Source of the DNA: Mobula hypostoma
Taxonomy: Eukaryota
Length of the DNA: 64,000 nucleotides
Assembly: GCF_963921235.1 (NCBI RefSeq)
Contig: NC_086097.1
Span: 58,344,001-58,408,000, forward strand
Direction: 5' to 3'
Positions within the stretch are counted from its first letter, which is position 1, and every line of letters starts with the position of its first letter. The translations under genes were made by a program, and so were the position numbers. Below, in pieces: positions 1-61,035 of this stretch. Below the pieces are notes generated by a model. The model ran no database searches, was not told where the DNA came from, and was given only the letters and a program-made list of their open reading frames with translations.

Positions 1-1270
1 CCTCCAGTTAGCGCAAACGGTGCATTACAGCGGCAGTATTTTTGGCTAAATCGACTTAAAATATGCAAACTTACAGAATGCAGGCAAAGTTCAGGGTTAT
101 ATATTCGTATAAAGTTGCTCACTTGCCAAAATCAACAGCCTCGCTTTCACCGAAGTGCCGATGTCAGCCATGATGGAAACCGTGACTTGACAGTACGACG
201 CATGCGCACGGCCAGCCTCAGAAGCAACTCACGATGCTCACGGTAGCGACACCAACCAGAACAAAAGGGCAGGGCAGCTCTATTTCAAGTGGTCACTTTC
301 TGCTCATCACCCTCAGCATGTGCAGGATTGGGACAGATCAAACTGAGACCCATCAATAAGAGATGATTAAATATTACTGTAATGATGTATTTCAAGACAC
401 CCATCAAACCCTTTACTGCAGTCAAAGGACAGCAGTGACTATATCACATCCATTTAGGAGAGCGCCAACCACATCATCAAGAATAATCAGCATCCTGGAG
501 GTTTTCGTGTTACTGCTTCGTATCTTCTATCCAGCATTAGGGTGAAAATATATGGTCAACCTAATTATGCCGCGTGGAAAGAGGAGGGGGACAATATGGT
601 CAAGAGATGACGCCAAGCGATGTTGGGAAGCAGCAAGGAGAGGGAGAGAAGAATTGGATGAGGCCAGGGCCGCATGACTCCAGGATCAAAGAGTCAGGAC
701 AAAAAAGATGAGAGAAGAAGAGACAGAGGAGGAGAGGCATGCACGTCTCCAAAATGACAACAACTGGCATAGAAGGAGAAGAGACGAAGAGACAGAGGAG
801 CTGAGAAATGCACGTCTCCAGGATCAGTGACAAAGAACAAACAGCAGAAGAGATGAAGAGACGGGGGATGAAGGGGTTGCATGTCTCCAGAATGACAAAA
901 ACGGGCACGGGAGGAAGAGACAAAGGAGCAGAGAAATGCATGTCTGCAAGATCAGAGACAAAGAATAAACAGCAGAAGAGATGAAGAAGTGGCAGATGAA
1001 AGGACTGCATGTCTCCAGAATGACAACGAGAGGCGCAAGGGTGGCAGATTAACCAGAAATGATGCCATCAAAAGTGTCCTTCATTAAACGAGGAGGAGCT
1101 ATATTTGCCTTGCTACGGGTCGTTCTTTAATAAACTGAGGTTTTCTTCTTCAATTTCCAAAGCAAAGCGATACGAATAGCATTCAGGAAAATTTAATGTT
1201 CATTCTGGTCACATCAGACTGCACTACCCTTCTCTCAAAGGGTGCCCCAACGGGTCACCCCGTTGTCTAG
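1..1270 (+). mobile_element. Non-autonomous Helitron; 5' end lies upstream of the window
   Basis: GC-rich hairpin gggtgcccc-aac-gggtcaccc (1240-1260) is followed by cgttgtCTAG (ends 1270) and a flanking T, the canonical Helitron 3' terminus. CpG-rich body contrasts with AT-rich DNA after 1270. Contains a decayed RepHel-like N-terminal repeat ORF. Confidence 0.8.
567..1087 (+). pseudogene. Decayed ORF of 23-aa STPR-like repeats (Helitron RepHel N-terminus-like)
   Basis: ATG 567: MPRGKRRGTIWSRDDAKRCWEAARRGREELDEARAA*LQDQRVRTKKMREE/ETEEERHARLQNDNNWHRRRRDE/ETEELRNARLQDQ*QRTNSRRDE/ETGDEGVACLQNDKNGHGRKR, then a frameshift. Repeat anchors at 672, 741, 810, 879, 938 and 1007 give a 69-bp period with one 10-bp deletion. 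Both stops are TGA at Arg-like positions, consistent with CpG decay of CGA. Confidence 0.75.
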
Positions 1271-1806
1271 TTAAGTTATAAAATTATTCAGCTCATGCAG
1301 GAAGCATGGAATTTACTTGTCTTATTGTATGTGCAGGCTGTTGAAATGGTGGTGCAGATTTTTCCAATCAAGAATGCATATAGTTTTTCTATGAAAGTCA
1401 ATTAACGCAATCATACTGGATTCAATTTCTGTCACGTTTTCATCACAAGAAATTCTCTTCATTTCATCCCAGAATTTTTTTTTCCATTACCCTTTTTAAA
1501 ACTGATGCTCTCTAATTACTGATCCTTTGTCAGTGTAAATAGTTTCTACTTGCCAACCCTCTTAATTGTATTAAGTGCACGCTAGAATTCAATAACAGGA
1601 TACGTTGATTTTTTTTTGAATAATGGTAGTATTTACTATTAAGCAGCTTAATTTTTTGTCATATAATGCACCAGTCTTGTTGAAGTCTTGTCTGTCTGTC
1701 TCCATTTTTATTAAGAAATGATTGCAGGTAGCATAGCAGTAAGTTGGAATAATTGCAATGGAGTCGAAAACAATTTTAAAGACAAAATGGCTTCCCTGTT
1801 ACAGAG

Positions 1807-1955
1807 CAACACACGCAAAATGCTGGAGGAACTCTGCAGGACAGACAGCATCTATGGAAAAGCGCAAACATTCAATGTTTTGAGCCGTGACCCTTCATCA
1901 GGATTATGTGTGTTGCTTTAGATTTCCAGCATCTGCAGATTTTCTTGTGTTTGTG
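1807..1955. mobile_element. Short Penelope-like terminal-repeat fold-back remnant with degenerate hammerhead (- strand)
   Basis: caacacacgcaaaatgctggaggaactc...gacccttcatcagga (reverse tail) joined to tgtgtgttgc...tttccagcatctgcag (forward tail). Same motifs as the copies at 26592-27539 and 40440-40575. Confidence 0.7.
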
Positions 1956-2574: not shown

Positions 2575-3393
2575 GTCATAGTCATACTTTATTGATCCCG
2601 GGGGAAATTGGTTTTTGTTACAGTTGCACCATAAATAATAAATAGAACCATAAATAGTTAAATAGTAATATGTAAATTATACCAGTAAATTATGAAGTAA
2701 GTCCAGGACCAGCCTATTGGCTCAGGGTGTCTGACCCTCCAAGGGAGGAGTTGTAAAGTTTGATGGCCGCAGGCAGGAATGACTTCCTATGACGCTCTGT
2801 GTTGCATCTCGGTGGAATGAGTCTCTGGCTGAATGTATTCCTGTGCCCACCCAATACATTATGTAGTGGATGGGAGACATTGTCCAAGATGGCATGTAAC
2901 TTGGACAGCATCCTCTTTTCAGACACCACCGTGAGAGTGTACAGTTCCATCCTCACAACATCACTGGCTTTACGAATGAGTTTGTTGATTCTGTTGGTGT
3001 CTGCTACCCTCAGCCGCTGCCCCAGCACACAACAGCAAACATGATAGCACTGGCCACCACAGACTCGTAGAACATCCTCAGCATCGTCTGGCAGATGTTG
3101 AAGGACCTCTGTCTCCTCAGGAAATAGAGACGGCTCTGACCCTTCTTGTAGACAGCCTCAGTGTTCTTTGACCAGTCCAGTTTATTGTCAATTTGTATCC
3201 CCAGGTATTTGTAATCCTCCACCACGTCCACACTGACCCCCTGAATGGAAACAGGGGTCACCGGTACCTTAGCTCTCCTCAGGTCTACCACCAGCTCCTT
3301 AGTCTTTTTCACATTAAGCTGCAGATAATTCTGCTCACACCATGTGACAAAGTTTCCTACCGTAGTCCTGTACTCAGCCTCATCTCCCTTGCT
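2575..3393 (-). mobile_element. Rex1/Babar-clade LINE, 5'-truncated 3' end
   Basis: ORFs 3010-3312 and 2714-3028 give KTKELVVDLRR...YKYLGIQIDNKLDWSKN...QSRLYFLRR...SHPLH...RKSFLPAAIKLYN. 3' tail (tatgac)n with aataaa near 2575-2592. Confidence 0.88.
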
Positions 3394-4089
3394 GGAAGTT
3401 AAGGAAGTTAACAGATCAGTTAGCTTACATTTTCATTTCTGTTTCCACTTTAGCATGCAGTTACTGGTAACATTCCTTTTTAACTTCATGATATTTTCAA
3501 AATTTTGTTATACCTGTATTGAGTCCAAAATCATCTCGTCCTTTACATAATTTGATTATTTGATTGTAAGCTGTTGCTGGAACTCCTTTTGATTACACAA
3601 GAATAAGTATCTAATAATAACACATGAAGGATTAAAAAGTCAATAATGTTGACACAATTCCTTCATATTAATTTTTACAGAAGTGATATGAATTTCTACT
3701 GCTTTTGAATTGTGTTGAATTTATGTGACCAGAAGGCCTGAGAGGCAGACCAGTAGTGAGGAAGTAAAACAGTATTTAAGTCCAGCTACTTATACTAGTC
3801 CTTTTCAAGGCAAAATGCTCCAAGTTGGTTCATGGTATTCATTGTTCAGGTGACCTAAAAATTGAAAAAAGTCGTTTCATGATGTATCTAAAGGTGGGAA
3901 GAAGATTAAAGTTGATGATGATTGTGGCCAGAATTTGGTGTTTGTAGGTATTTTGTTAGATTAAAGGGGTGGAGTAGATTAGAAAAAAGCCACACAATCT
4001 TTTGTAAAAGAGGTTCAGAATTTTTAAAACCTGACATTGTTTAACCAGGAGCCAATATGGATCAGTCGGCAGTAGTGATGGGTGAATGG

Positions 4090-22465: not shown

Positions 22466-23835
22466 AAAAATTATGCTGTATCCTTGCACTCAAAAAAAGT
22501 TGGTTTATCTATACTAAAAAGGAGGATGTAATTTTTTCCCCTCCTGGGAACTCAATCAAATTGAATCTTGCAGTCTTGTACTTGTCTGGTCACTTGCACA
22601 AGACTTACTGAAGTACTAAATTTGATTTGGAACAAAGACACCTCCAGGCACCACATCTCATTTTTTTTCAGCTGAAATGTAATAGTTTAGTTGCCACATA
22701 CAAAGCAATGGATATTTGGAACAACTGACATCTTGCTGTGAGGCAATTGTAAAGGTCTAGGGAAAAGTGTTGCAGCTTATCTGTGGAGTGAATATAGAAT
22801 CCCATCTATGCAGTTTCAATTGACCACATGCTATTCACAGGCTGGCAGCAGATGTGCCTTTGTGAAATTCTCTGCAAAAGGACATGGCTGCTAGGATCTC
22901 CATGAAACACTGCATTTTATTAGATTTTAATGTGGTCTGTTTGATGTATACAAAACTTATTTTTCAAGTTGACGTGGTGGGGATGCCAGTATCAGAACAT
23001 AAGACATCTAATAATTTTTAGTCTTGATAACTGGCAGTCTTTATGAAAGTCATATCTGTTTGAGGTAGGTAAACATGGATATTAATGGTAATTGCAATTT
23101 ATTCAGCTAGCCTCTTCCTTGTTTATGTATGATGAAGAGTGAGGATATTAAGTGTAATTATATGAATTTTTAGCTCCTGTGAACTTTACTGATTTGCAAT
23201 AATGTAAATATTTTGCCTCTAAAGCTAGAAGACAATGCTTGTAATTTATTGTAATATACCTGTTCAACTTCATAAATAGTAAGATGATAAACATGAAAAG
23301 ATGATAACTGAGTTGTCCAGGTCTGTTGTAGCAGAAGGGTTTTTCTATGACAGTTTATAATCAATTGCATTGAAAACATTTGAATATGTAACAGTTGTGG
23401 GAAAGAACTATTTAATTTTAAGCAGCAGGAAAGGGACAGCAACAATAAGTTCTGAGTCTAATGTCTTGACATCTAATCATTGTTATCAGGTCTGATTTAC
23501 TACTGAAGTTAAATTTAACCTTAAACATTGTAAGAGCATCTCTTCTTTTTCTGTCTGGCTTTATCTAGTGCTTGTCACTCTGTCTCCCACACTGCTGCTC
23601 CTTTGCACTGCTATATATTGACAGCTTGATACAAAGACATGACATATAACATGGACTTCTATCTGGCTTTTGCCTTCACAGGTCCTGCTTGGTTCTTCTA
23701 GGATTCTGTTCTTTTTGTTTAAAAGCGAAAAAAAAAAATTCTTCTCTCCATAAATTTAATAGTTCTGGAAAAAATTTGTAAATGGAGTCTACATTAAAAA
23801 ATGAGCTTATTTATATATAAAGAAGGAATTCAAGG

Positions 23836-24660
23836 TCTTAAAGCTTATTGATTAATTTCAAGGGGATGATATTATTGAGTGCTGAGCTGTAGTCAATAAA
23901 GAGCAACATCCTGATATATGCATCTTTGCTGTTGAAATGTCCTAGGATTGAGTGAAGAGCCAAAGAAAGGTCATCTGTTGCTGACTTTTTGTGCCGGTAG
24001 GCAAACTGGAGCAGATCCAAGTTGCCTCTCAGGCAAGAGTTGATGTGTTTCATTACCAACTTCTCGAAACTCTTCATCACTGTGGGTGTAAGTGCGACTG
24101 GACAATAGTCTTTGAGGCAGGTTACCAGATTCTTTTTAGACACAGGTATAATTGAAGTCTGTTTGAAGTAGGTGGGTAACTTGGACTGCCTAAGCGAAAG
24201 GTTAAAGATCTCAGTGAACATTCCAGCCAGTTGATCAGCAGTGTTCTTTAGTACTTGACCAAGTACCCAATCTGGGCTGGATGCTTTTTGTGGGTTCATC
24301 CTCCTGAAGGCTGCTCGCATATTGGCGTCAGAGACTGAAGCAACAGGATCATTGGGGCTATGGGAGTTTGTGATGGTCCCTCCATGTTATGGTAGTTCAA
24401 ATGAGCATAGAAGGCATTGAGCTCATCAGGAAGTGAAGCCTTGTCGTCTCCTATGTCACTTGATTTTACTCTAGAAGAGGTGATCGCATCAACATCCTGC
24501 TACAATGTTGAGCATCCTTCATTGATTCAAGTTTAGTCCAGAATTGCTACTTTGCCCGTGAGATGGCTTTCTGGAGATCACACCTGGACCTCTTGTAAAT
24601 TTCTTGGTCACCAGAATTGAATGCCTCTGATCTAGCTCTCAGCAGATTGTGAATCTCATT
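23836..24660 (-). mobile_element. Rex1/Babar-clade LINE internal RT fragment
   Basis: ORF 23838-24320 ...IFNLSL...FKQTSIIPV...DYCPVALTPTVMKSFEKLV...QFAYR...RMLLFIDYSSALN. Confidence 0.85.
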
Positions 24661-26591: not shown

Positions 26592-27539
26592 GCAACACAT
26601 AAAAAATGCTGGTGAATGCAGCAGGCCAGGCCAGTTTATAGTAAGAAGTACAGTCGACGTTTCGGACCCAGACCCTTCGTCAGGACTAACTGAAAGAAGA
26701 GATAGAAAGAGATTTGAGAGGGGGAGGGAGAGATCCGAAATGATATGGGAAGACAGGAGGGGGAGGGATGGAGCTAAGAGCTGGAAGGTTGATTGGCAAA
26801 AAGGATATGAGGCTGGAGAAGGGAGAGGATCATGGGACGGGAGGCCTAGGGAGAAAGAAAGGAAAGGGAGCCCAGAGGATCGGCAAGGAGTTATAGTGAG
26901 AGGGACAGAGGGAGAAAAAAAAGAGAAAAGAAATAAATAAATAAGGGATGGGGTACGAAGGGGGGGTGGGGCATTAACAGAAGTTAGAGAAGTCAATGTT
27001 CATGCCATCAGGTTGGAGGCTACCCAGATGGAATACAAGGTGTTGTTCCTCCAACCTGAGTGTGGCTTCATCTTGACAGTAGAGGAGGCCGTGGATGGAC
27101 ATATCAGAATGGGAATGGGACGTGGAGTGAAAATGTGTGGCCACTGGGAGATTCTGCTTTCTCTGGCGGACAGGGCGTAGGTGTTCAGAGAAACGGTCTC
27201 CCAGACGTCGTTGGGTCCTGCCAATATATAGAAGGCCGCATTGGGACTCCCCTTTCTTTCTCCCTAGGCCTCCTGTCCCATGATCCTCTCATATCCCTTT
27301 TGCCAATCAACTCTTAGCTCCATCCCTCCCCCTCCTGTCTTCTCTTATCATTTTGGATCTCTCCCTCCCTGTCCCAAATCTCTTTCTATCTCTTCTTTCA
27401 GTTAGACCTGACAAAGGGTTTTGGACCAAAACGTTGAGAGTACCTCTTCCTATAGATGCTGCCTGGCCTGCTGCGTTCAGCAGTATTTTTTATGTGTGTT
27501 GCTTGAATCTTCAGCATCTGCAGATTTCCTAATGTTTGC
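26592..27539 (-). mobile_element. Penelope-like element 3' end (GIY-YIG C-terminus, tail and hammerhead) with an inverted partial copy
   Basis: Minus strand 26990-27240 encodes ...LRLEEQHLVFHLGSLQPDGMNIDFSNF (GIY-YIG end). 27246-27539 is a plus-oriented copy of the tail. Bounded by a 17-bp TSD. Confidence 0.88.
26652..26687 (-). ncRNA. Minimal type-I hammerhead ribozyme motif (Penelope-associated)
   Basis: Minus strand agtc-CTGACGA-agggtctgggtcc-GAAA-cGTC-gact: stem I agtc/gact, intact CUGANGA and GAAA core, GUC cleavage triplet. Confidence 0.75.
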
Positions 27540-28483
27540 ATTCCCAAAATTTTCTGTGGGGTCTTTTGTTCTACCACAGCCCCCAGTGGGTCCAGTTTGA
27601 CTCCTATAACAGAGCCAGTCTTTCTAATCAGTTTTTTGAGCCTGTTGGCATCACCCGTATCGAGGCCATTGCCCCATCACACCACCGCATAGAAGATTGT
27701 ACTGGTGACAACAGACTGGTAGAACATGTGAAGAAAGGAGGTGTGCTTTTGGTATTCCCTGCCTTATTTACCTGTGGAGGTGGTGATTTTTGTCGTTCAA
27801 AACACAGATCAGTAGATATCTGGGCAATAATGGAATCAAGGAATAAGAGTAATGTTGGTAAGTAGCACTGAGCAGGAGGATTAGTGATATTTTCAATTAT
27901 GGTGATGCAGATTTGAAGGGCTGGATAGCCTACTTCCACTTACAGTTGCATTGGAATGTGAATGTTTAGAATAATGACTCACAAAGGACACAATGTTAAT
28001 AAGAAGTAGGAGGGATCTGAGATCTTCGGTGGAACGAGACAAGTAAAGGAATAGAGGCAAAAGAGAAAAGAGCAACTCTAGTGACAGCTGGATAGAAGAG
28101 AACACAGGTAGAGAAATACAATCTCTAGTATAATAGTGGATAAGGAGATGATGTACAAGGATAGTGAGGGCAGTGGTTGAATGTATTCCGCTGCCATTGT
28201 GGAAGTTTATTGTGACTTCACAAGTCATTATAATGACAATTCTGAAAATCTGATGGATGGGATTTCAGGATATGGCTTCTAGGAAACGTGAGCATGGATT
28301 TAATCCTACATGGGTTTTAAGTTTTTTTTGTATGTAACATTTGTGTTAACTTGTGAGAAGAAGATCCTTTAAAATAATTTTCAGGATCTCAATATTATTT
28401 TATACACCTTATTCCAATTATGTTTATCGTAACTTTGTTATGTTTATTCTACTTGTGTCACGTTTCTAATTGTTATAAAAATG

Positions 28484-29105
28484 AGCACAAGAGATTCTGC
28501 TGATGCTGGAAATCCAGAGCAACACACTTAAAATGCTGGAGGAATTCAGCAGGTCAGGCAGCATCTTTGAAAGAAAAATGAACTGCCAAGACCCTTCATC
28601 AGGACTAGAAAGGAAGTGGGGGAGATGTCAGAACAAAAAGCTGGGGGGTGGGGAAGGAGGACAGTCTAGGGATAGGTAAGGGCAGATGGGTGGGAAAGGT
28701 AAGGGGCTGAAAAAGGAGGAATCTGATGGGGGTGTGGTGGACCATGGGAAGAAGGAGGGGCACTGGGGTGTGATGGGCAGGTGAGGAGGAGAGGTGGGGG
28801 GGGGAATAGAAGAAGAGGGAAGGGGGAGGGGCAAAGGGAAAAAAGAGAAACATTAAAAAAATTACCGGCAACACACATCAAAGTTGCTGGTGAACGCAGC
28901 GGGCCAGGCAGCATCTCTAGGAAGGGGTACAGTCGACGTTACCTCGACGTCGTTACAGTTAACATCGACTGTACCTCTTCCTAGAGATGCTGCCTGGCCT
29001 GCTGCATTCACCAGCAACTTTGATGTGTGTTGCTTGAATTTCCAGCATCTGCAGAATTCCTGTTGTTTGTGTAAAAAAAAAATTACTGGGGAGTTTTTGT
29101 CGAGA
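28484..29105 (-). mobile_element. Penelope tail fragment with a nested palindromic Penelope-tail insertion (~28868-29071)
   Basis: Outer copy has gatgctggaaatccagagcaacac...gacccttcatcaggact and a purine-rich spacer. Inner ~74-bp inverted arms are flanked by taaaaaaattac(c/t)gg duplicates. Confidence 0.8.
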
Positions 29106-29731
29106 AATAAGTGAAGAGCTTTAAGACCTTCTTTATGGGAGATGGAATAAATAGGGACTGGACATCCATGGTGAAGAGATGGTTAGGGGCAGTGAACTGA
29201 AAGTTGTTGAGGAAATCCAGAGCATGTTACCAAAATGCTCATCTTCTGTTAATGGGAAGCATAATTTCACAATATTTAATAAAGCTTAATAAGAAATACA
29301 CTGAAGCAAGATCAAAAAGCATTGTTAATGACAACAAAAGTAAATCAGTTTGATTTATTCTTTTTAATCTTTCTGTGCTGAACGTTTTTAAAAGAATACA
29401 AGAGTTTTCCTAAATATTACATATCTTAAGCTTTTTTTTTAATAATTGGTTAGTGGTGATTCTTAAAAACTTGTACAGAATGAGTGGGAGGAAAGGATTA
29501 ATACTTACGGTGACACTTTTGCCTGAAATGAATTATTGATGGAAATTGTCGACACTAATTTTTGTACTGTCTTGTTGTTCTCCAGTTACTTATTACATTT
29601 TCATTGCTTAGACTAATCAGGCAGAGGACTGAAGTTCACGGGAGTAGCTTAGTCATTTCTAAATGAGGCATTCTAATTGAAACATTTATAGTTGATCTCT
29701 TTTGGTGTAGAATTAGTTGCAGTGCAAGAGT

Positions 29732-29864
29732 TAGTCCTGACGAAGGGTCTCGGCCTGAAACGTCGACTGCGCCTCTTCCTATAGATGCTGCCTGGCCTGC
29801 TGTGTTCACCAGCAACTTTGATGTATGTTGCTTGAATTTCCAGCATCTGCAGAATTCCTGTTGT
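29732..29864 (+). mobile_element. 133-bp Penelope tail insertion beginning at the hammerhead, with 15-bp TSD
   Basis: ttgcagtgcaagagt is duplicated at 29717-29731 and 29865-29879. The insert is hammerhead plus the tagatgctgcctggcc...tttccagcatctgcag tail. Confidence 0.85.
29733..29768 (+). ncRNA. Minimal type-I hammerhead ribozyme motif
   Basis: agtc-CTGACGA-agggtctcggcct-GAAA-cGTC-gact. Predicted cleavage after 29764. Confidence 0.78.
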
Positions 29865-31807
29865 TTGCAGTGCAAGAGTATTGACTTGGAAGAGGTAGAT
29901 ATTAAGTGGGGTCTTTTCTAGGATGCGATGAAGGTGAAATGACGGAAGATAATTGGTATATTAAAAGATTTTCACAACAAATTTCGTGACAGATGCCAGT
30001 GATATTAAACCTGATTCTGGAGATTGTTGTAAAATATCAGCAACATAATGAATTATCTTGTACTTTGGCACTTGGATTATATGATGTGCAAGTTGCTTGA
30101 ATCGTTTTACTGCCACTAGATTAGTGCTGGTAAATTTAATTTTGTTTGACTTCATATCAGAATTATGATTTTCAACATGTCACCATAACAAGTTAAAACA
30201 ATTGTTTCAGTGGATCAAACATTCATCTGTGTTTGGAAATGGATAATTTTTTTAATGAATCAGTTGTTAAATCGTAATAACACGATGTTTTGACAGAATC
30301 TATGTTTTACATAGTAATATCTGTTTTAGGAAAACCAAAGAAATTTTAGCAAGTTTTTTTTTATTCCCCTCTGCCTAGAAATAACGGGAATTTTGGTGTG
30401 GTACCCAATTGAAAATATTTTAATGTTTAGCATTTTCCTCATTCTGGTGGGGAAACATCTTCATTTGACTAGTATCAAATCCTGAGGTACTTCATCTAAA
30501 GTTGAAAGTACATTTATTATTAAAATATGTATACCATATACAACCTTGAGTTTCATCTACTTGCAGGCAGCCACAAAGCAAAGGAACACAACAGAATTCT
30601 TGAAAACTCCTCCTCTACCACAAACCGTGATACGTCCATATGCGAAAATAATTTGTAATCTATAAACCGCAAATTGTTGTTGAAGTGAACAGAGTTCTTT
30701 CTCCTCCGCTCTTGTATCTTTCTTACTCTTTTGTCATCTTTGAAATGAAATATGGTCAAAGATTAGAAATGAAAGCTTTTTGAATTATACAATGAACTTC
30801 TCATATCTAATGCTAATTTAGTTTATTTCTACCAGTACTTCCCCTTTGTTGTGGTTTGGTGGTTATATAGTTAAGGCATCATTATGAAGCTTCAAATGAT
30901 CTCTTAAATATTTTGATAGTTCTATGAAATCTATATCTGTGGCAATTTAAAGGCCTCTTTTATAAAGTACCCACCATCGTCGCATGAAATGATGTGACTG
31001 ATACATACTGTGCATAGGGGCAAATGCATTGGGGACAGAGATGTAATTAATGCCAACTAGAAGAAATAATTTGAAAGACTCTTTATCTTCTATATAAGCA
31101 CTCTTCTCTGCATCCCTCAATAACCTATTCAATCCAATCTTACTGCCAGTCCTAATTGACATGGTTGAAAAGGCATATCTCAAAAAAAAAGTGCAAGGCT
31201 GAGGAGCAGATGGTATCCCCAATTAAATCCTAAAATTCCAGTGTAGAGCATTGGACACGGATCCATAATGTCATCATACCAGGGAAGAGGAAGATATATT
31301 GGTGGGCTCAAAGTGATGAGATTGGCTGTGAGATCCACAAGAAGTCTGCCAGAGGGAAGATCATCACCAGGGTCATTTTCAACCACTTTCTTACGGTGGA
31401 AGAGCTCCTCCCCAATTACAATGGAGGTATGATGGACATGATCTTCAACAACTTCAAGAGGAGTTCATGAAGGATCAGCAACAGTCTTAATACATGGACT
31501 TTTTCCACCTCACTAATGCCTGGCTAGTGAAATCAGTCAATGAGAACTGTAGAACATATCCCTCAATTTGAAATTCGTCTCTATCTCTCTATCTTGTGCT
31601 TGCTTTATTTATAGCAAGAAAACTTTGATGCTGATTAACAGTTCTACAAAGCTACATCACTGAATACCCCAACACTTTTCTGAATTGTTCTTGCTGTAAC
31701 ATTGCATCATAACCCAGGAGTGGTGCTAATCCTCAAGACTAATGGGAAATTGTTCAATCTTTGTCTGCTGTGTTGCAGAACCTCAGTAGTTGGGTTGCAG
31801 AATGTGA

Positions 31808-32640: not shown

Positions 32641-32965
32641 AGATGTTTATTTTGCACATGCTCTTGACCTATATACAGAAACATAGGAAAGAATGGGTCT
32701 GAACCTCAAAACCTGCATATCAAAGCTGTACCAATCTACCACAATCTCCTTGACAATAAAGGTTATGGTGAGGCATTGAGAGACATGAACCATTTGGAGA
32801 TACCTTGCTATAAAGGATGGCGAAATGCACATTTTAGCACAGCCTATTATTGTTTGAGGAAAGGGGTTTGACAGTCAAGGCTCAGACCTGATGTAAAACT
32901 TGTGGCCTCCCAAGCAGCAATACAGATGAGAGTGACATTAGAAATCTGGAGTGATGAAAGCAGAA

Positions 32966-33473
32966 CACGAGAAAATCTGCAGATGCTGGAATTTCAAGCA
33001 ACACACATAAAAGTTGCTGGTGAATACAGCAGGCCAGGCAGCATCTCTGGGAGGAGGTACAATCGACGTTTCGGGCCGAGACCCGAAACATTGGCATGAA
33101 AATTGACTTCTCAAACTTCTGCTAATGGCCCACCTCCCCCTCATACCCCATCCGTTATCTATCTATCTATCTATTTATTTATTTATTTATATACATGCAT
33201 TCTTTTTCTCCCTCTGTCTCTCTCACTATACCCCTTGAGGATGGGCAAGTGGTATAGTGAGAGGGACAGAGGGAGAAAAAGGAGAGAGAGAAAAAGAATG
33301 CGTGTATATAAATAAATAATGGATGGGGTACGAGGGGAAGGTGGGGCATTAGCGGAAGTTTGCGAAGTCAATTTTCATGCCAATGCTTCGGGTCTTGGCC
33401 CGAAATGTCGACTGTAGCTCTTCCTAGAGATGCTGCCTGGCCTACTGAGTTCACTAGCACCTTTTATGTGTGT
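32966..33473. mobile_element. Palindromic Penelope-derived insertion with 14-bp TSD
   Basis: tgatgaaagcagaa is duplicated at 32952-32965 and 33474-33487. Arms ~32999-33231 and ~33250-33475 are inverted copies around an 18-bp spacer. Confidence 0.85.
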
Positions 33474-33669
33474 TGATGAAAGCAGAAGATGGCTTCCTCT
33501 CTGCTCTAAAAGAAACTAAGAGAAAATATAATAGAGGATATTTAAAATGGTTAGAGTAGTTAATTAAATAGGTAAGTTCTGTCCACACTGAAGGGATACA
33601 GGTTTGCATTGTTCGGCAAACAAAATCAGAGACAATGTTGATGAATACCAATGGGTCAGTGAACAATAT

Positions 33670-34939: not shown

Positions 34940-35100
34940 AAACACAAGAGGTTCTGTAGATGTTGGAAATCCAGAGCAATGTACGCAAAATGCTGGAGGA
35001 ACTTGGCAGGTCATGCAGCATCTATGGAAATGAATAAACCATTGACATTTCAGGCTGAGACCCTTCTTCAGGACTGGAAAGGAAGGGGAAAGATGCCAGA
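34940..35100 (-). mobile_element. Penelope tail fragment with partly degenerate hammerhead
   Basis: Minus strand cagtc-CTGAAGA-agggtctcagcct-GAAA-tGTC, with the stem I partner mutated. Confidence 0.72.
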
Positions 35101-36344: not shown

Positions 36345-37041
36345 CAGACATCCCACCCTGCAAAAACTCATTTCAGGGAGGTAGCACCATCAATTTGCGG
36401 GAGACTTCCAGGAGAAGTGGGATGTCTGCAATAGAGTAGCTCCTTAGCAGCTAGCCAGCTAGTTTAAATAACATTAGCTATGCTAATGAACGAATGACAC
36501 CTGTTAAACTTACATCAACATGTCTTTTACAGCTTTAACCCACCATGGGCAATAGAAAAGTCACTGTTGCAAACAGTGCAGCGTGCAACACTGTCATTAT
36601 TTTTGACCCCTTTTAGTTAGAGGTACACTTTAGTGTAGTCTGGGGTGACATATGTTTTATATATTTTTTGGAACACTGCCATGACGCGCTCTCGCTCGCG
36701 CGCGCGCTCTCTCTCTCGTGGTCACTCGTGTGCTCTCAAGCGCTCTCACTTGCTTTCTGTCTCGCTCGCGCTCTCTCGCTTGCTTTCGCTCTCGCTCGCG
36801 CGCTCTCTCGCTTGCTTTCGCTCTCGCTCGCGCGCTCTCCCTTGCTTTCTCTCTTGCTCGCTCTCTCACGCTCACTTGCTCTCGCTCTCTCTCGTGTGCG
36901 CTCTCGTGCTCTCTCTCGCTTTCTCTCGCTCGCTCTCAAAAAAATTGATTTCCGTGATATTGTATATAAATTGCGGGCATCAGGAAGCCACTATTAATAT
37001 GCGGGATACTCCCGGAACTTGCGGGAGAGGTGGGATGTCTG
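36345..37041. mobile_element. Non-autonomous TIR DNA transposon (superfamily uncertain) inserted in a Rex1 3' end (~36240-36344 and 37042-37290)
   Basis: 13-bp TIR cagacatcccacc / ggtgggatgtctg, subterminal gcgggaga repeats and imperfectly duplicated flanks agtacc / agtgcc. Confidence 0.75.
36686..36938. repeat. Compound (CT)n/(CTCG)n CpG-rich microsatellite
   Basis: cgctctcgctcgcgcgctctct... with a recurring ctcgcttgctttcgctctcgctcgcgcgctct unit. Confidence 0.92.
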
Positions 37042-39884: not shown

Positions 39885-40575
39885 TCCACAAACATCACTC
39901 TGCAAGTCATAATCTCCCAGTGGCCACACATTTAAATTCCACATCCCATTCCCATTGTGATATGTCTATCCACGGCCTCCTCTACTGTCAAGATGAAGCC
40001 ACACTCAGGTTGGAGGAACAGCACATTATATTCTGTCTGGGTAGCCTCCAACCTGATGGCATGAACATTGACTTCTCTGACTTCCATTAATACCTCTCCT
40101 CCCCTTCGTACCCCATCATTCATTCATGCATTTATTTATTTATTTATTTATTTTAAATTTGTTTCCCCTTTTTTTTCTCTCTCTCTTTCTTCTCCCCCTG
40201 TCCCTCTCACAATCACTCCTTGCCTGCTCTCCATCCTCTGGGCTGGTTTCCCCTCCCCCTTTCTTTCTCCCTTGGCTTCCCATCCCATGATTCTCTCCCT
40301 TCTCCAGCCTCATATCCCTTTTGCCAATCAACTTTCCAGCTCTTGGCTCCATCCCTCCCACTCCTGTCTTCTCCTATCATTTTGGATCTCCCCCTCCCCC
40401 TCCCACTTTAAAATCTCTTACTATCTGTTCTTTCAGTTAGTCCTGATGAAGGGTCTCGTCCCGAAACGTCGACTGTACCTCTTCCTATAGATGCTGCCTG
40501 GCCTGCTGCATTCCACCAGCATTTTGTGTGTGTTGCTTGAATTTCCAGCATCTGCATATTTCCTCGTGTTTGCGT
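39885..40575 (+). mobile_element. Penelope-like element 3' end (GIY-YIG C-terminus, pyrimidine-rich spacer, hammerhead, tail)
   Basis: ORF 39842-40090 ends LPVATHLNSTSHSHCDMSIHGLLYCQDEATLRLEEQHIIFCLGSLQPDGMNIDFSDF. Confidence 0.88.
40439..40474 (+). ncRNA. Minimal type-I hammerhead ribozyme motif
   Basis: agtc-CTGATGA-a-ggg-tctcgt-ccc-GAAA-cGTC-gact. Palindromic ACGT forms the stem III region. Predicted cleavage after 40470. Confidence 0.8.
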
Positions 40576-40759
40576 TCATAATCTATAGCATTGCTTTCCT
40601 GAACCTTTAGAAGATTTCCCTGGCTGTTGACATTTCTCATGCTCCCCACAGAACAAAAGATCCTGTGGAAATTCCAATGTTTCAGATTACTTCCATTACT
40701 TCATTTTTTCAAAATAATTTCCAGCAACGTAATTATTGAAATGGTCTTCTGGTCAGGGA

Positions 40760-41620
40760 TAGATGCTGGAGGAACTTGGCAAGTTAGACAGCATCAATGG
40801 AGGGGAATGAACAGTTGACATTTTTGAGCCAGGACCTTTCATCGGGATTAGATAGAAAGTTCTATTGCTACGATAAGGCCACACTCAGGTTGGAGGAGTA
40901 ACACCTCCTAGTCCATCTGGGTAGCCTCCAATCTGATGGCTTGAACATCGATTTCTCTAACTTCTGGTAATTGCTTCTCCCCTTGCCCTTCTCTGTCTCT
41001 CTTTTTTTATTTCCCATTCTTGTTTCCCCTCTCTCCCTTTCTCTTTTCCTCCCCGGCCCATGAACACCTGGTGCCTCTCCTCCTTCCATATCTTCCATGG
41101 TCACTATGCTCTCCTATCAGATTCCTCCTTCATCCCTTTGCCTCTTCCACCTTTCAGCCCCTTACTTCATCGATCCGTCCATCTTGGTTTCACTTGCTAT
41201 CTTCCAACTTGTACTACTTCCCCTCTCCCCTCCTCCTTATTTTGCCCTTTTCTTTTCCAGTCTTGATGAAGGATCTTGTCTGGAAACATCAACTGTTTAT
41301 TCCTCTCCACAGATGTTGTCTGATTTGCTGATGTCCTCCAGTGTTTTGAGCGCATGTCTCTGGGTATCCAGCATTGGCAGAATCTCTTATGTTTATGTAG
41401 TGTTGAGGCATTGGCTATAACTAATTAAATTAAAAGTGCTGGTAGCACTCTGCTGGTCAGTCAGTGTCTGAGGAAAGAGAAACAGAGTTAATGTCGGAGT
41501 TTCTTCATCAGAATTGGAAAGGGAAAAAATGAGTTGGGTGAAGGGGGTGGATTTAGCAATAGGGAATATCCCTGATAGAGCGAGGCCGGGGTAGTGACGA
41601 GAGAAACTGTAAAGGTGTAG
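40760..41620. mobile_element. Older Penelope fragments in both orientations with degenerate hammerheads
   Basis: aaggccacactcaggttggaggag...gggtagcctccaatctgatggcttgaacatcg (GIY-YIG end) at ~40875-40965. Degenerate cagtcttgatgaagg...gaaacatcaactg at ~41258-41295. Reverse tails at 40760-40850 and 41430-41520. Confidence 0.7.
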
Positions 41621-44223: not shown

Positions 44224-46565
44224 CAAAGTTCAAAGTAAATTTATTATCAAAGTACATGTATGTCACTGTATACAACCCTGAGATTCACTCTATTGCAAGC
44301 ATGCAATATCTATAACATAATAGAATAATAACCATGATAGAAACAATGAAAGACCGCACCAACTTGGGTGTTCAACAAGTGTGTAAATAAGAGAAGACTG
44401 CAAGTACAAAAAGAAAGAAACAATAATAATAAGTAATAAATATCGAGAACATGAGATGAAGAGTCTTTGAAAGTGAGTCCATAGGTTGTGGGATGATGTC
44501 CATGACGGGCAAGTGAAGTTGAATTAAGCTATCCCCTTTGGTTTGAGAGCCTGATGGTTGAGAAGTAATAACTGTACTTAAACCTGCTGGTGTGAGTCCT
44601 GAGGCCCTTGTACCTTAGCTGATGACGGGATGACCTGAGTGGTGGGGGTCCCTGATGATGGATGCTGCTTTCCTTCGACAACATTTCTTGTAGGTGTGCT
44701 CAATGGTAGCTAGGGATGGACTGGGACATATCCACTACTTTTTGTAGGATTTTCTGTTCAAAGGCATTGCTGTTTCCATACCAGGCTGTGATGCATCCAT
44801 TTAATATACTCTCCACCACACATCTTTAGAAGTTTGTCAAAGATTTAGATGTCATGCTGAATCTTCGCAAGCTCCTAAGGAAGTAGAGGCACTGGCATGC
44901 TTTCTTCGTAGTCGTACTTGTGGGCTGGGCCCAGGACAGGTCCTCTGAAATAACAACACTGAGGAATGGAAGGTTGCTGACCCTTCTCACCTCTGGTCCT
45001 CAGACGAGGACTGGCTCCTGGACCTCTGGTTTCCTCGTCCTGAAGACAATAAACATCCCTGGGGTTTTGCTGCCATTGAGTAAGAGATTATCGTTATGGC
45101 ACCACTTAGCCAGATTTTCAATCCCCCTTTTCTGCAGATTCATTACCACCTTTCATTCAGTCTGTGACGGTATATGACATTGGAGTTGTACTTAGCCACA
45201 CAGTCAGATAACCATATAACAATTACAGCATGGAAACAGGCCATCTCGGCCCTTCTAGCCCATGCCGAACGCTTACTCTCACCTTATTCTCGTAAGTGTA
45301 AAGCAAGTATAGCAGGGAGTTAAGCACACAGTCCTGTGTGCACCTGTACTGAGGGAGATTGTGGAGGAGGTGTTTTTGCCATTTCACGCTGACTGGGGGT
45401 TACATGTGAGGAAGTCGAAGATCCAATTGGTCAAGGAGGTATTGAGGCCAAAGTCTTCAAGCTTATTGATTAGTTTTGTGGGGGTGATAGTATTGAATGC
45501 CAAGCTGTAGTTGATAAGGAGCATCCTGATATATGCATCTCTGCTGTCCAGATGTTCCAGGGTTGAGTGAAGAGTCAATGAGTTAACATCTGCTGTGGCC
45601 CTATTGTGACAGTTGGTACATTGGAACAGATCTAAATCGCTTCTCAGGCAGGAGTTGATGTGTTTTATCACCAGTCTCTCAAAACACTTCACTGTGTATA
45701 CTGGACCATAGTCATTGAAGCAGGTTACCACATTCTTCTTGGGCACTGGTGTAAGTGAAGTCTATTTGAAGCAGATGCGTATCTCAGACTACCAAAGCAA
45801 GGGGTTATAGATCTCAGTGAACGCTCCAGCCAGTTGATCAGCACAGGTCTTTAGCACTTGGCTAGATACCCAATCTGGGCTGGATGCTTTCTATGGGTTT
45901 ACCAACCTGAAGGCTGCTTGAATGTCGGCCTCAAAGACTGAAAATCACAAGATCATTGAGGGCTGTGGTTGCTCATGATGGTTCTTCCATGTTTGAAAGT
46001 CAAAGCTAGCATAGAAAGCATTGAGCTCATCTGGAACGTGAAGCCTTGTTGTCACTTATGTCACTTGATTTTACTTTATAAGAGGTGATAGTATTCAAGC
46101 CCTGCCACAACTGTCGAGCTTTCTTTGTTGATTCAAGTTTAATCCAGAATTGCCACTTTGGTCACCAGACTTGAAAGTCTCTGATCTGGCCCTCAGCAGA
46201 TTGTGGGCCTCATTGTTTATCCAGGGCTTCTGGCTGGAGAAGACGGACTGATTTTGTGGGGACACACTCGTGTTTTAGTAAAGTTGTGACAACCATGGTG
46301 TATTCATTCAGATCTACATATGAGTCTTTGGACACAGCCCAGTACACTGACTCAAAGCAATCTTGTAGCTGCTCCTCTGTCTCTTGTGACCACCTCTTTG
46401 TTGTCGTAATCTTTGGAGATTTGCGCTTTAGTCTCTGCGAATATGCAGGAAGGAGAAGGACAGCCAAGTGATCAGATTTGCAGAAATGCGGCCTGGGCAT
46501 GGAATGGTCTTTAGTGATCTAGTGTGTGGGGACCTCTGGTACAACAAGTTGTATGCTGATGGTAA
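44224..46565 (-). mobile_element. Rex1/Babar LINE, long decayed copy (endonuclease end, RT and 3' tail), containing a short CR1-tail insert at ~45205-45290
   Basis: ORFs PRPHFCKSDHLAVLLLPAY (46210-46500) and KCFERLV...YIRMLLINYSLAFNTI...NWIFDFLT (45384-45746). Confidence 0.87.
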
Positions 46566-55000: not shown

Positions 55001-56248
55001 CATCTCCAACTGTAGAAGAACTTCAGCTAAGTCCACTTTGATGAAGTGTTTCCCTCCAGAAAGGCTTGCAATGATATCCTCTATCTTAAGCATAAGGTAT
55101 TAATTTACTTTCAGAACTGGTTTGATGGTGACCTTAAAGTCGCAACAGATCCTGACCAGACCTATTGTTCTTGGTTACTCAGACCACTGACATTGCCCAT
55201 CGGCTCCACTCAAGCTTGGAAAGAATTCCTTCAGCCTCCATGTGATCTACCTCACTGGCTACTTAACTCTATCTCACCCTTGATATGTTTGAGTTTTCTA
55301 ATGCCATCCTTGAACACTGCTGTAGCATCATCCAGTACCTTACTTAATTCACTGTAATTTGACTGTATTACAGGAGATGTGGCATGCTAATGGTGGATGG
55401 ATCCCAAGTCAAGTTGTTGTCTCAGCCATTCACGTCCCCACGATGCTGACCCTCTGTTTTTACCACATACAATCCCAATGTGGCTTGTTGGTTGTTGTAT
55501 TTCACTGTTATAAATGTCATTCCCATAGGGGTTATCTTTTCTCCAGTATAAGTTCTTAGTTGGATATTTGCAGGCTTCAGTTCAGGATCTTTGAAATGCC
55601 ATTCAAACACATTTTGTGGAATGACTGCAACAGCTGAGCCAGTGTTCAATTCCATTTTAATTAATTTGCTGTTCACTTCTGATGTAAGCCATATTGCTTG
55701 TCTCTTATTAGTTTTCATACTGTAAATCTTAAGGCTACTTATCCTGTGTCTCTCCCATCAACAGCATACAGAATAGTGCAGTTTTTAAAACTGCAACTTG
55801 ACTTTTTATCTTTTTCTCTTCCCCGTGCAGTCCAATTACAGTATTGTCTGCCCAACATGCTCTTTGCATATGTCCTACTTTGTTGCATTTGCAAGTTTTG
55901 TATTTAATCCTATATTGGTCTGGTATATGTGAGCCCCTCCCACAATGGTAGCACAATTTGTTCAGCTAGGCTGGTTTCTATTTAGACATTGTAATTTTGC
56001 TCATGCTCGACTACAACTTCTCTTTCTGCTGTTTCCACTGATACAATGATTTTAACTGCTCTTTTAAATGCAAGTTGTGCTTCAGTTAGCAGCCATTTTT
56101 GAATGCTTTTTTGTAAAATTCCACAAACGTAAATAATCTGAATGCATTATTAAATCCATTACTGAACTGACAATGCTCAGACTCCATTTTAGCCACGTAC
56201 ACTGAAATGGACTTCCCTTCCTTTTGATCCCACTTATGAAACCTAAAG
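52062..56248 (-). mobile_element. Decayed Gypsy LTR retrotransposon (3' LTR ~52062-52554, integrase, RNase H, RT, protease, gag); gag resumes at 60821-60938
   Basis: PPT agggaggag next to a TG...CA LTR. PYEPATNGLAKRFVQ (IN), WQRILVDFAGPF, KEALSLVFGAKYFNQY...TDHQPL (RH), YYLDDI (RT), MELNTGSAVAVI (PR) and CYHCG..H / CKCNKVGHMQRAC knuckles, in Gypsy order. Confidence 0.9.
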
Positions 56249-57835
56249 GTGTTGGAGATGTTAAAATACATTAGGACAGATAAGTCCCCGGGGCCTGATG
56301 GAATATTCCCCAGGCTGCTCCACGAGGCGAGAGAAGAGATTGCTGAGCCTCTGGCTAGGATCTTTATGTCCTTGTTGTCCACGGGAATGGTACCGGAGGA
56401 TTGGAGGGAGGCGAATGTTGTTCCCTTGTTCAAAAAAGGTAGTAGGGATAGTCCGGGTAATTATAGACCAGTGAGCCTTACGTCTGTGGTGGGAAAGCTG
56501 TTGGAAAAGATTCTTAGAGATGGGATCTATAGGCATTTAGAGAATCATGGTCTGATCAGGGACAGTCAGCATGGCTTTGTGAAGGGCAGATCGTGTCTAA
56601 CAAGCCTGATAGAGTTCTTTGAGGAGGTGACCAGGCATATAGATGAGGGTAGTGCAGTGGATGTGATCTATATGGATTTTAGTAAGGCATTTGACAAGGT
56701 TCCACACGGTAGGCTAATTCAGAAAGTTAGAAGGCATGGGATCCAGGGAAGTTTGGCCAGGTGGATTCAGAATTGGCTTGCCTGCAGAAGGCAGAGGGTG
56801 GTGGTGGAGGGAGTACTTTCAGATTGGAGGATTGTGACTAGTGGTGTCCCACAAGGATCTGTTCTGGGACCTCTACTTTTCGTGATTTTTATTAACGACC
56901 TGGATGTTGGGGTAGAAGGGTGGGTTGGCAAGTTTGCAGACGACACAAAGGTTGGTGGTGTTGTAGATAGTGTAGAGGATTGTCAAAGATTGCAGAGAGA
57001 CATTGATAGGACGCAGAAGTGGGCTGAGAAGTGGCAGATGGAGTTCAACCCGGAGAAGTGTGAGGTGGTACACTTTGGAAGGACAAACTCCAAGGCAGAG
57101 TACAAAGTAAATGGCAGGATACTTGGTAGTGTGGAGGAGCAGAGGGATCTCGGGGTACATGTCCACAGATCCTGAAAGTTGCCTCACAGGTGGATAGGGT
57201 AGTTAAGAAAGCTTATGGGGTGTTAGCTTTCATAAGTCGAGGGATAGAGTTTAAGAGTCGCGATGTAATGATGCAGCTCTATAAAACTCTGGTTAGGCCA
57301 CACTTGGAGTATTGTGTCCAGTTCTGGTCACCTCACTATAGGAAGGATGTGGAAGCATTGGAAAAGGTACAGAGGGAATTTACCAGGATGCTGCCTGGTT
57401 TAGAAAGTATGCATTATGATCAGAGATTAAGGGAGCTAGGGCTTTACTCTTTGGAGAGAAGGAGGATGAGAGGAGACATGATAGAGGTGTACAAGATAAT
57501 AAGAGGAATAGATAGAGTGGATAGCCAGCGCCTCTTCCCCACGGCACCACTGCTCAATACAAGAGGACATGGCTTTAAGGTAAGGGGGTGGGAAGTTCAA
57601 GGGGGATATTAGAGGAAGGTTTTTTACTCAGAGAGTGGTTGGTGTGTGGAATGCACTGCCTGAGTCAGTGGTGGAGGCAGATACACTAGTGAAGTTTAAG
57701 AGACTACTAGACAGGTATATGGAGGAATCTAAGGTGGGGGCTTATATGGGAGGCAGGGTTTGAGGGTCGGCACAACATTGTGGGCTGAAGGGCCTGTACT
57801 GTGCTGTACTATTCTATGTTCTATGCTATGTTCTA
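56249..57835 (+). mobile_element. Young 5'-truncated CR1 LINE (RT nearly intact; frameshifts near 57172 and 57590)
   Basis: 308-aa ORF with NYRPVSLTS, SQHGF, YMDFSKAFDKV, GVPQGSVLGP and FADD. Continuation ORF 57190-57612. (ttctatg)n tail. Confidence 0.95.
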
Positions 57836-60939: not shown

Positions 60940-61035
60940 CCTGTCTGCCTAAATGCTGCCTGACCTGATGAGTTCCTCCAGCAGTTTGTGTGTGTTATTC
61001 TGGACATCAAGCATCTGCAGAATCTCTCATTTTTT
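60940..61035 (+). mobile_element. Penelope tail fragment (probable partner of the reverse tail at 51965-52061)
   Basis: atgctgcctgacctg...gagttcctccagca...tgtgtgtt...gcatctgcagaatctc. Confidence 0.65.

What the first reader, a model, noticed from the sequence alone, without database searches (positions are those of the whole stretch)
567..1087. Hidden STPR-like 23-aa repeat ORF inside a Helitron
Seen: a 69-bp tandem repeat alternating two subtypes (ARLQDQRQR / ARLQNDNNR) behind an MPRGKRR start. The ORF track misses it because two TGA stops and a 10-bp deletion break it. Known: 23-aa ET-x-EE-R-x-ARL repeats define the DNA-binding STPR domain (silkworm FMBP-1, ZNF821), and similar repeats occur at Helitron RepHel N-termini. 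Inference: this is a non-autonomous Helitron family that kept only a small, properly stopped (TAA 1085-1087) STPR-like DNA-binding ORF. Intact copies might encode a stand-alone accessory or regulatory protein.
Basis: partly seen in the sequence, partly recalled or inferred. Interest (0 to 1): 0.75.

Follow-up and report, generated by a model that had tools for sequence, protein, structure and literature searches.

The report
Helitron remnant with STPR-repeat transposase stub
This is a decayed copy of a very common rolling-circle transposon (Helitron) that lost its enzyme region and kept only the repeat-rich front end of its transposase gene, which is ordinary, although close relatives of that front end survive intact inside predicted snake genes.

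Summary
Observation confirmed: six 69-bp units in two alternating subtypes behind ATG 567, TGA stops at 675 and 828, a 10-bp deletion near 907, TAA 1085-1087. Bases 1-1270 are a high-copy repeat that ends sharply at hairpin + CTAG|T; its 5' end lies before the window. The repeat is STPR-like: Pfam 15-16 bits, under the cut-off of 27; a close relative's model matches BmSTPR best. A stand-alone accessory gene is not supported. In relatives the same start and 23-aa repeats run in one frame into the RepHel zinc finger, including a full 1,609-aa sponge RepHel. Here homology breaks off inside unit 6, and a stop within 15 codons arises 60% of the time by chance. The family-majority frame is probably open (177 aa), but frameshifted variants are common. 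Best reading: N-terminal transposase stub of an internal-deletion, non-autonomous HLE1, now decaying. Better leads: 63-66% identical open relatives fused to a non-Helitron segment in three snake genera, and phage-like contigs with stand-alone STPR ORFs. The scan's index held no look-alike.

The parts
1..1270 (+). [quoted passage not shown]
   Evidence: Summed contig depth 258-434,921 in the 50-nt bins over 1-1250 against 4-43 beyond 1300 in 4 of 4 runs; bin 1-50 is already high
534..566 (+). Leader upstream of the ATG, homologous to the stretch before the same start in P0002
   Evidence: tblastn of P0002 residues 6-140 aligns from 534
567..650 (+). Start codon and basic N-terminal segment (MPRGKRR...; nuclear-localisation-like by inference); this copy lacks 3 nt near 648
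   Evidence: the same kind of start opens P0001, P0003, P0005, P0006, P0008, L001 and the L008 RepHel
651..1037 (+). Six STPR-like 23-codon units (register starts 651, 720, 789, 858, 917, 986), alternating QDQ and QND types; unit 4 holds the 10-nt deletion; unit 6 is cut after about residue 17
   Evidence: Pfam PF21107 E 0.034 and 0.017, 15-16 bits
675..677 (+). TGA at the conserved Arg9 of unit 1 (C>T at a CpG, inferred)
   Evidence: Arg in the snake relatives; not among the 40 differences shown
828..830 (+). TGA private to this copy; the family reads Arg
   Evidence: The other letter holds 98.3-100% of depth at 828 in 4 of 4 runs
1038..1087 (+). Inferred deletion junction, then a 15-codon non-repeat tail and TAA
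   Evidence: Base identity to unit 2 ends about 30 nt after 1007; no match to the relatives' linker or zinc finger; contigs of organisms A and C run across it; likeness to a RepHel C-terminus inconclusive
1129..1134 (+). AATAAA 42 nt after the stop (possible poly(A) signal; weak)
1240..1270 (+). 3' terminus: 21-nt hairpin 1240-1260 ending 10 nt before the end (alternative hairpin 1248-1265), then CTAG
   Evidence: 1225-1275 folds at z = -5.1, 0 of 200 shuffles as good; 1240-1260 alone z = -2.1, 7 of 200; loose ends at 1271/1272 in all four runs
1271..1271 (+). T of the A|T target site
   Evidence: Copies match through 1271 and then diverge into unrelated AT-rich flanks: 149, 107, 102 and 24 records

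Best explanation
An autonomous Helitron (HLE1) encoded one RepHel protein: basic start, 23-aa STPR-like helices, linker, zinc finger, Rep nuclease, PIF1 helicase. An internal deletion beginning in repeat unit 6 (about 1037) removed the linker, zinc finger, Rep and helicase and joined the stub to the element's 3' region. The ends stayed intact, so the derivative was copied in trans by RepHel from an autonomous partner to hundreds or thousands of places. The founder probably still had an open 177-codon frame, because it came from an active gene and any frame soon meets a stop. Copies then decayed; this one gained two stops and two deletions and cannot make the protein. Shown: anatomy, high copy number, 3' end, shared junction, same-frame repeat plus RepHel in relatives. 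Inferred: the deletion, mobilisation in trans, neutrality, and that the ancestral repeats wrapped the DNA major groove as BmSTPR does.
For: High depth over 1-1270 with a sharp end at CTAG|T in 4 of 4 runs; hairpin. No hit of a full RepHel below E 0.06 anywhere in the window. Same-frame architecture in relatives: P0002 (63% identical to the window over 113 codons) continues into a CxxC motif that aligns with the L008 RepHel zinc finger (pairwise E 3e-7); P0006 matches Helraiser 7LCC residues 23-199 (E 1.9e-5); L008/L009 hold a 1,609-aa ORF with eight motifs 23 aa apart, Helitron_like_N (E 1.6e-58) and PIF1 (E 4e-65), clustering with Corticium candelabrum proteins; P0008 and L001 likewise. Coding ancestry: third-position excess between old units (3/7/15, p = 0.006; 5/5/11, p = 0.056) but not the youngest pair (5/4/4, p = 0.68); 3 of 8 compared pairs tested. 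Decay: of 9 codons where this copy differs from the family majority, 3 are synonymous, 5 change the residue, 1 is a stop (neutral expectation 20-26% synonymous); density 9/521 in the ORF against 17/749 outside, p = 0.55. Frameshift variants in the family: +1 at 700 (20, 27, 1, 29% of depth), -1 at 619 (3, 2.5, 11, 6.5%), -1 at 993 (11, 0, 5, 0%). Stop within 15 codons by chance: 0.60.
Against: The autonomous parent of this family was not found: no RepHel closer than the sponge and invertebrate ones came up, so the deletion is inferred from relatives. HELIANO reports STPRs in ORFs separate from RepHel. The family-majority frame appears open, and depth over the ORF (median about 280-2,200 times flank) shows that many copies keep it. 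The selection tests rest on 9 sites from the 40 best-supported differences (221 not shown) and have little power. The 5' end is unseen. The tail's resemblance to a RepHel C-terminus is not significant.
Confidence: 0.8

Rival explanations
1. The stub is a deletion product but was functional, like the Drosophila KP element: the 177-aa truncated protein bound transposon DNA through its STPR helices and damped RepHel activity, or helped it as in the semi-autonomous Mothra model.
For: Family-majority frame probably open: stop 828 absent in 98-100% of depth, 3 nt near 648 restored in many copies, one contig of organism C with +10/-6 gap letters over 722-1034, and 521+10+3 = 178 codons. Start, leader and an AATAAA are kept. 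KP precedent: PMC5427502 and PMC5800288 passages.
Against: Frameshift variants reach 20-29% of depth in three runs; some contigs delete the start (520-995) or the stop (675-1178). The youngest repeat pair and this copy diverge neutrally. The BmSTPR residue Tyr16 is absent from 6 of 6 units. An open founder frame is expected under the best explanation too.
Confidence: 0.1
2. The repeats were already a separate accessory ORF of an autonomous HLE1, and this family kept that gene whole while losing RepHel.
For: HELIANO counts STPRs among 17 domains encoded in ORFs separate from RepHel, almost only in HLE1 (PMC11417382 section 22). Stand-alone STPR ORFs exist elsewhere (L002).
Against: The closest relative that reads on, P0002, runs from the same start and repeats into the RepHel zinc-finger motif; P0006, P0008, L001 and L008 do too. 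The window's last unit is cut short.
Confidence: 0.07
3. A plain purine-rich minisatellite whose 23-codon reading is accidental.
For: Pfam score under the cut-off; low-complexity charged sequence; no hits among proteins of 64-207 aa (81 candidates).
Against: 63-66% identity to open proteins that share the start and leader; STPRs was the only Pfam family listed for the read-through piece and for 678-827 and is matched by 8 of 9 aligned relatives; third-position excess; best structural match of the P0002 model is BmSTPR.
Confidence: 0.03

Closest known systems
Non-autonomous HLE1 Helitrons (HelibatN1-N3 with Helraiser; PMC4778049, PMC11417382)
   Same: Hairpin 10 nt before a CTAG end (Helraiser: 19-bp palindrome 11 nt upstream), T after the end, no RepHel core, many copies, presumed mobilisation in trans.
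   Different: Keeps about 470 nt of the transposase's own N-terminal repeat region with a probably open frame; no captured host gene seen; 5' end and partner not seen.
STPR domain, Pfam PF21107 (Bombyx FMBP-1, PDB 5d23; PMC4856987)
   Same: Strict 23-residue period; Glu1 in 6 of 6 units, Leu10 6 of 6, Arg6 5 of 6, Thr2 4 of 6; the P0002 model has 21-residue helices with 2-residue linkers and matches 5d23 best (Z 7.4, rmsd 3.2, 64 of 64 residues).
   Different: Under the Pfam cut-off; Arg9 intact in only 2 of 6 units of this copy; Tyr16 and the hydrophobic base-contact positions differ; alternating 46-aa dimer; no binding test.
RepHel N-terminus: Helraiser 7LCC and the Corticium candelabrum 1,609-aa RepHel (XP_062504019.1 cluster)
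   Same: Basic start, then 23-aa repeats, then zinc finger in one frame.
   Different: The window stops inside repeat 6; the sponge repeats differ in sequence and gave no Pfam STPR hit at E 0.1.
KP element of the Drosophila P family (PMC5427502, PMC5800288)
   Same: Internal deletion derivative that keeps a truncated N-terminal transposase frame and becomes abundant.
   Different: KP repression is shown by experiment; here nothing shows expression or function, and the superfamily differs.
Mothra mother element of rice (PMC4683698)
   Same: Helitron with a coding frame but no RepHel.
   Different: Mothra's mother keeps a separate RPA-like gene; here the frame is a piece of RepHel itself by the evidence from relatives.
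HeligloriaB, horizontally transferred Helitrons (PMC2997563)
   Same: Helitron family shared by distant vertebrates, with fragments reported in snakes.
   Different: No sequence comparison was possible (supplement unavailable); this family may or may not be HeligloriaB.
Snake gene models 'RNA-binding protein 25-like' (XP_013920868.1, XP_058029734.1, KAK9405686.1)
   Same: Same start (two of three), same alternating units, 64-66% identity over 113 codons for the two with the start.
   Different: Open, four units, keep the linker, and are joined to a non-Helitron segment just before the zinc finger; the name is an automatic label.

Membership tests
HLE1 Helitron | 3' CTRR end | tested here: met
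   CTAG 1267-1270; family depth ends there
HLE1 Helitron | Short hairpin about 10-12 nt before the 3' end | tested here: met
   1240-1260 (z -2.1) ends 10 nt before the end; whole terminus z -5.1; a competing hairpin 1248-1265 is slightly more stable
HLE1 Helitron | Insertion between A and T | tested here: inconclusive
   3' T shared across copies; the 5' A lies outside the window
HLE1 Helitron | 5' TC end | not testable with these tools
   Element begins before base 1; no genome held
HLE1 Helitron | Dispersed multi-copy repeat with unrelated flanks | tested here: met
   Loose ends at 1271/1272 with consensus agreement 0.42-0.50 in 4 of 4 runs
Autonomous Helitron | Rep (HUH) and PIF1 helicase domains | tested here: not met
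   No tblastn hit of the L008 RepHel below E 0.06 in the window; only 183 nt lie between the stop and the 3' end; unseen 5' part not tested
STPR domain (PF21107) | Pfam gathering score 27 bits | tested here: not met
   15.0 and 15.9 bits; closest open relatives 14-22 bits; more distant P0006 and P0008 pass with 28.6 and 32.8
STPR domain (PF21107) | Strict 23-residue tandem units, three or more | tested here: met
   Six units at 69-nt spacing apart from one deletion
STPR domain (PF21107) | Glu1, Thr/Ser2, Arg9 in each unit (PMC4856987) | tested here: inconclusive
   This copy: Glu1 6/6, Thr2 4/6, Arg9 2/6, the other four one C>T away; P0001-P0004 have all three in 4 of 4 units
STPR domain (PF21107) | Zig-zag of 21-residue helices with 2-residue linkers | tested here: inconclusive
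   Seen in the model of relative P0002, not of the window; top match 5d23 Z 7.4 against 5.7 next, but under the tool's bar for helical repeats; Foldseek found nothing
STPR domain (PF21107) | Binds the DNA major groove | not testable with these tools
   Needs a binding assay
KP-like truncated-transposase regulator | Open truncated frame in the founder | tested here: inconclusive
   Stop 828 and both gaps look private to this copy; site 675 not among the rows shown
KP-like truncated-transposase regulator | Expressed and represses transposition | not testable with these tools
   Only contigs could be laid
HeligloriaB | Over 80% identity in the terminal 30 bp | not testable with these tools
   Reference sequences not readable

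The most novel reading that the evidence does not exclude
One Helitron family passed horizontally between this host's lineage (probably a cartilaginous fish; recalled, untested) and the ancestor of colubrid and viperid snakes. In snakes its STPR N-terminus was domesticated as a coding exon, spliced just before the zinc finger to a host segment and kept open in Thamnophis, Ahaetulla and Crotalus. That would be a recent, datable case of a host STPR DNA-binding protein born from a Helitron, and it would make a Helitron origin for FMBP-1/ZNF821-type STPR domains testable. In this host the same N-terminus survives as a 177-aa frame in a mass-amplified deletion derivative that could have acted like KP.
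Probability: 0.3. Interest if true: 0.65.

Novelty: new member of a known kind. Interest (0 to 1): 0.32.

Why it matters
As found, it is one more non-autonomous Helitron. It does show plainly that STPR-like repeats sit at the N-terminus of RepHel in the same frame, whereas the one paper found that links STPRs to Helitrons lists them as a captured domain in a separate ORF (PMC11417382; search 'STPR' + 'Helitron' gave this paper and its preprint). If the snake lead holds, it gives a Helitron-derived host gene and a horizontal transfer between distant vertebrates, both testable with public snake genomes and RNA-seq.

Tried and rejected
No genome held, so no BLASTN or true consensus. No other copy of 1-1275 in the window. 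Homolog search at 64-207 aa: none of 81 candidates passed; short word seeds make this weak. No RNA holder listed among 24 runs; X15 is only guessed to be RNA, also covers the single-copy flank, and showed no GT-AG joint among the 15 rows shown, 141 not shown: no evidence either way on expression. Idea that the tail is the RepHel C-terminus fused in frame: spacing matches the L008 end, but scores were reached by 24 to 444 of 1,652 control segments over six query lengths, 89 of 1,652 for the best local segment and 2,561 of 20,000 shuffles; Helraiser's C-terminus could not be displayed; left as inconclusive. DNA pattern from the 3' region: 0 matches in metagenome contigs. Viral contigs: no relatives in three scans. 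ESM Atlas: all hits under 0.9, leads only. Foldseek: no match. Rfam: none. Exact look-up of 9 window ORFs to learn the host taxon: 0 of 9 found. The sigma-70 scan does not apply to a eukaryote. Unit-length skips (69, 138 nt) are in frame by construction and were not counted as evidence of selection. Earlier-findings searches: three blank, one unrelated note. Literature searches for a described snake Helitron fusion or a ray-snake transfer showed nothing specific in the listings; subscription papers and Repbase were not searchable.

Full report
Observation. ATG 567 opens MPRGKRR; TGA stops lie at 675-677 and 828-830; the span is 521 nt, and the second frame ends in TAA 1085-1087. Six units are anchored at 672, 741, 810, 879, 938 and 1007; the one 59-nt step is a 10-nt deletion just after 906. 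Units 1/3/5 and 2/4/6 form two subtypes, 67-88% and 69-79% alike within type and 55-62% between. TRF and self-BLAST (E 7e-46) rule out chance.

The element. No genome is held, so I laid contigs of four public runs, 4 of 24 listed, from organisms A, B, C and A, on 1-1500. Summed depth over 1-1250 is 258-434,921 per bin against 4-43 beyond 1300. The tool warns that this is no copy number; it still means hundreds to thousands of copies (ORF bins: median about 1,950, 2,200, 280 and 360 times flank). Copies match through T 1271 and then run into unrelated AT-rich flanks (149, 107, 102 and 24 records at 1271). Upstream lie CTAG 1267-1270 and a hairpin at 1240-1260 ending 10 nt before the end; the terminus folds at z = -5.1. 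This is the HLE1 3' end as described in PMC11417382 and PMC4778049 (passages read). Depth is already high at 1-50, so the 5' end lies before the window. One contig of organism B bridges this 3' junction (1234-1500, 4 other letters), so the insertion is shared with B; A's contig has only 26 letters on the element side. The rest of the window is repeat-rich vertebrate-type DNA with broken LINE frames. That the host is a cartilaginous fish is my recall from flanking repeats and was not tested (one search found 0 of 9 ORFs). As context only, HELIANO's supplement lists 1,651 and 4,818 HLE1 in two ray genomes.

What the repeat is. Pfam STPRs was the only family listed for the read-through piece and for 678-827, at E 0.034 and 0.017 (15-16 bits, cut-off 27); the other three pieces gave an unrelated weak hit or none. 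In the register of PMC4856987 (passages), Glu1 is present in 6 of 6 units, Leu10 in 6, Arg6 in 5, Thr2 in 4, Arg20 in 3 and Arg9 in 2; the four lost Arg9 codons are TGA or TGT, one C>T from Arg. Tyr16 is absent from all six. A model of the close relative P0002 shows helices at 48-68, 71-91, 94-114 and 117-144, and its best match among 48,161 chains is BmSTPR 5d23 (Z 7.4, rmsd 3.2 over 64 of 64 residues; next 5.7). That Z is under the tool's bar for helical repeats and Foldseek found nothing, but phmmer also ranks FMBP-1 first for P0002 (E 0.0064). So it is built like an STPR array; formal membership fails the Pfam cut-off, and DNA binding is inferred.

Where it comes from. The searches returned 2 proteins among 1,522 longer candidates and 7 among 1.84 billion representatives. 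P0002 (unnamed, Logan) shares the leader from 534, the start and the alternating units, then goes on through a linker into a CxxC motif that aligns with a RepHel zinc finger. P0006 has the same plan and matches Helraiser residues 23-199 (E 1.9e-5); P0008 and L001 do too. L008 and L009 hold a complete 1,609-aa frame: basic start, eight motifs 23 aa apart, zinc finger, Helitron_like_N, PIF1; it clusters with proteins of the sponge Corticium candelabrum. In the window, likeness to the repeat ends about 30 nt into unit 6, near 1037, and nothing matches the relatives' linker, zinc finger, Rep or helicase. Contigs of organisms A (938-1075) and C (921-1217) cross that point, so it is a family trait. 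The simplest account is an internal deletion of an autonomous element. Against it: the family's own autonomous parent was not found, and HELIANO (section 22 read whole; supplement rows; its figures were not visible) counts STPRs among domains in ORFs separate from RepHel.

Is the frame open and selected? The family lacks the stop at 828 (98-100% of depth), often has 3 more bases near 648 (16-63%), and one contig of organism C has +10/-6 gap letters over 722-1034; filling both gaps gives 178 codons with the stop. Site 675 is not among the 40 differences shown (221 hidden). Differences between old units favour third codon positions (p = 0.006 and 0.056) while the youngest pair does not (p = 0.68); I tested 3 of the 8 pairs compared. 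This copy differs from the majority at 9 ORF codons, 3 synonymous, as neutral change would give (20-26% expected), with low power. Frameshift variants are common: +1 at 700 in 20, 27, 1 and 29% of depth, -1 at 619 in 2.5-11%, -1 at 993 in 0-11%. Before seeing L008 I guessed that the tail might be the RepHel C-terminus; the spacing fits, but the scores were not significant, so this stays open.

Mechanism. Best (0.8): a non-autonomous HLE1 whose ends are recognised by RepHel made elsewhere, the hairpin acting as terminator as in Helraiser; the ORF is a passenger. Rivals: a KP-like truncated regulator (0.1; KP described in PMC5427502 and PMC5800288, passages), a separate accessory gene as in the Mothra model (0.07; PMC4683698, abstract and section 14), a minisatellite (0.03).

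The snake lead. The closest named proteins are gene models from Thamnophis sirtalis, Ahaetulla prasina and Crotalus adamanteus. Identity to this decayed copy over 113 codons is 66% and 64% for the first two and 63% for P0002. All are open over four units and the linker and then join the same non-Helitron segment where P0002 enters the zinc-finger motif. The Helitron part is 80-85% identical among the three snakes, the following segment 70-83%. A shared junction points to one old insertion kept as an exon. Caveats: these are predicted genes, a protein search finds only open copies, no DNA was available for dN/dS, the joined segment has no Pfam family, and the host of the window is not established. 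Helitron transfer among vertebrates, snakes included, is already reported (PMC2997563, passages); its supplement could not be read, so this may be HeligloriaB. Four literature searches showed no report of the fusion in their listings.

Verdict. A real feature and a new member of a known kind: a non-autonomous Helitron with an STPR-like transposase stub. Interest 0.32, most of it from the snake and phage-like leads. The scan's index held no similar finding.

Noticed in passing
P0001, P0003/P0009, P0004 (snake gene models); homologous to window 567-920: Three snake genera carry an open copy of this Helitron N-terminus joined to the same non-Helitron segment just before the zinc finger; possible domesticated exon and horizontal transfer.
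   Followed up: partly
L002:7500-10288 + (also L003-L006): Phage-like metagenome contigs (Thy1, dCMP deaminase and deoxynucleoside kinase genes nearby) hold a run of five stand-alone charged repeat ORFs; two pass the Pfam STPR cut-off (89.3 and 43.6 bits), one with an exact 23-aa period; 0 of 6 ORFs hit PHROGs. PMC4856987 describes STPR as animal plus one moss; a search 'STPR' + 'phage' listed 6 unrelated papers. Viral nature not proven.
   Followed up: partly
L007-L010: Contigs filed in a Dehalococcoidia MAG carry intact Helitrons whose RepHel clusters with sponge (Corticium candelabrum) proteins: host contamination in a GTDB genome.
   Followed up: partly
P0008 (GBP33268.1): Named 'Zinc finger protein 821' in Eumeta japonica, but its repeats run into a RepHel-type zinc finger: probably a Helitron fragment joined to a Sushi-domain gene model.
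   Followed up: no
window 700: A one-base insertion in the A-run is common in organisms A and B (20-29% of depth) and rare in C (1%): may mark a frameshifted subfamily that kept spreading.
   Followed up: no
window 1225-1245: A second hairpin (1226-1243) lies just upstream of the terminal one and overlaps it.
   Followed up: no
window 1802-1955, 26592-27543, 28486-29072, 29729-29869, 32954-33475, 34943-35100, 39908-41052, 60950-61040: A repeat family occurs many times in the window at about 70-94% identity; Penelope- or SINE-like by recall, not identified.
   Followed up: no
window 2717-3432, 23831-24554, 45449-46160, 56240-60762, 61655-64000: Broken LINE frames; 56240-57172 hits RVT_1 (E 5e-35) and 3013-3432 hits ALKBH8_N.
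   Followed up: no
window 36742-36937: Pyrimidine-rich 30-bp tandem array whose minus strand gives spurious matches to the charged repeats.
   Followed up: no
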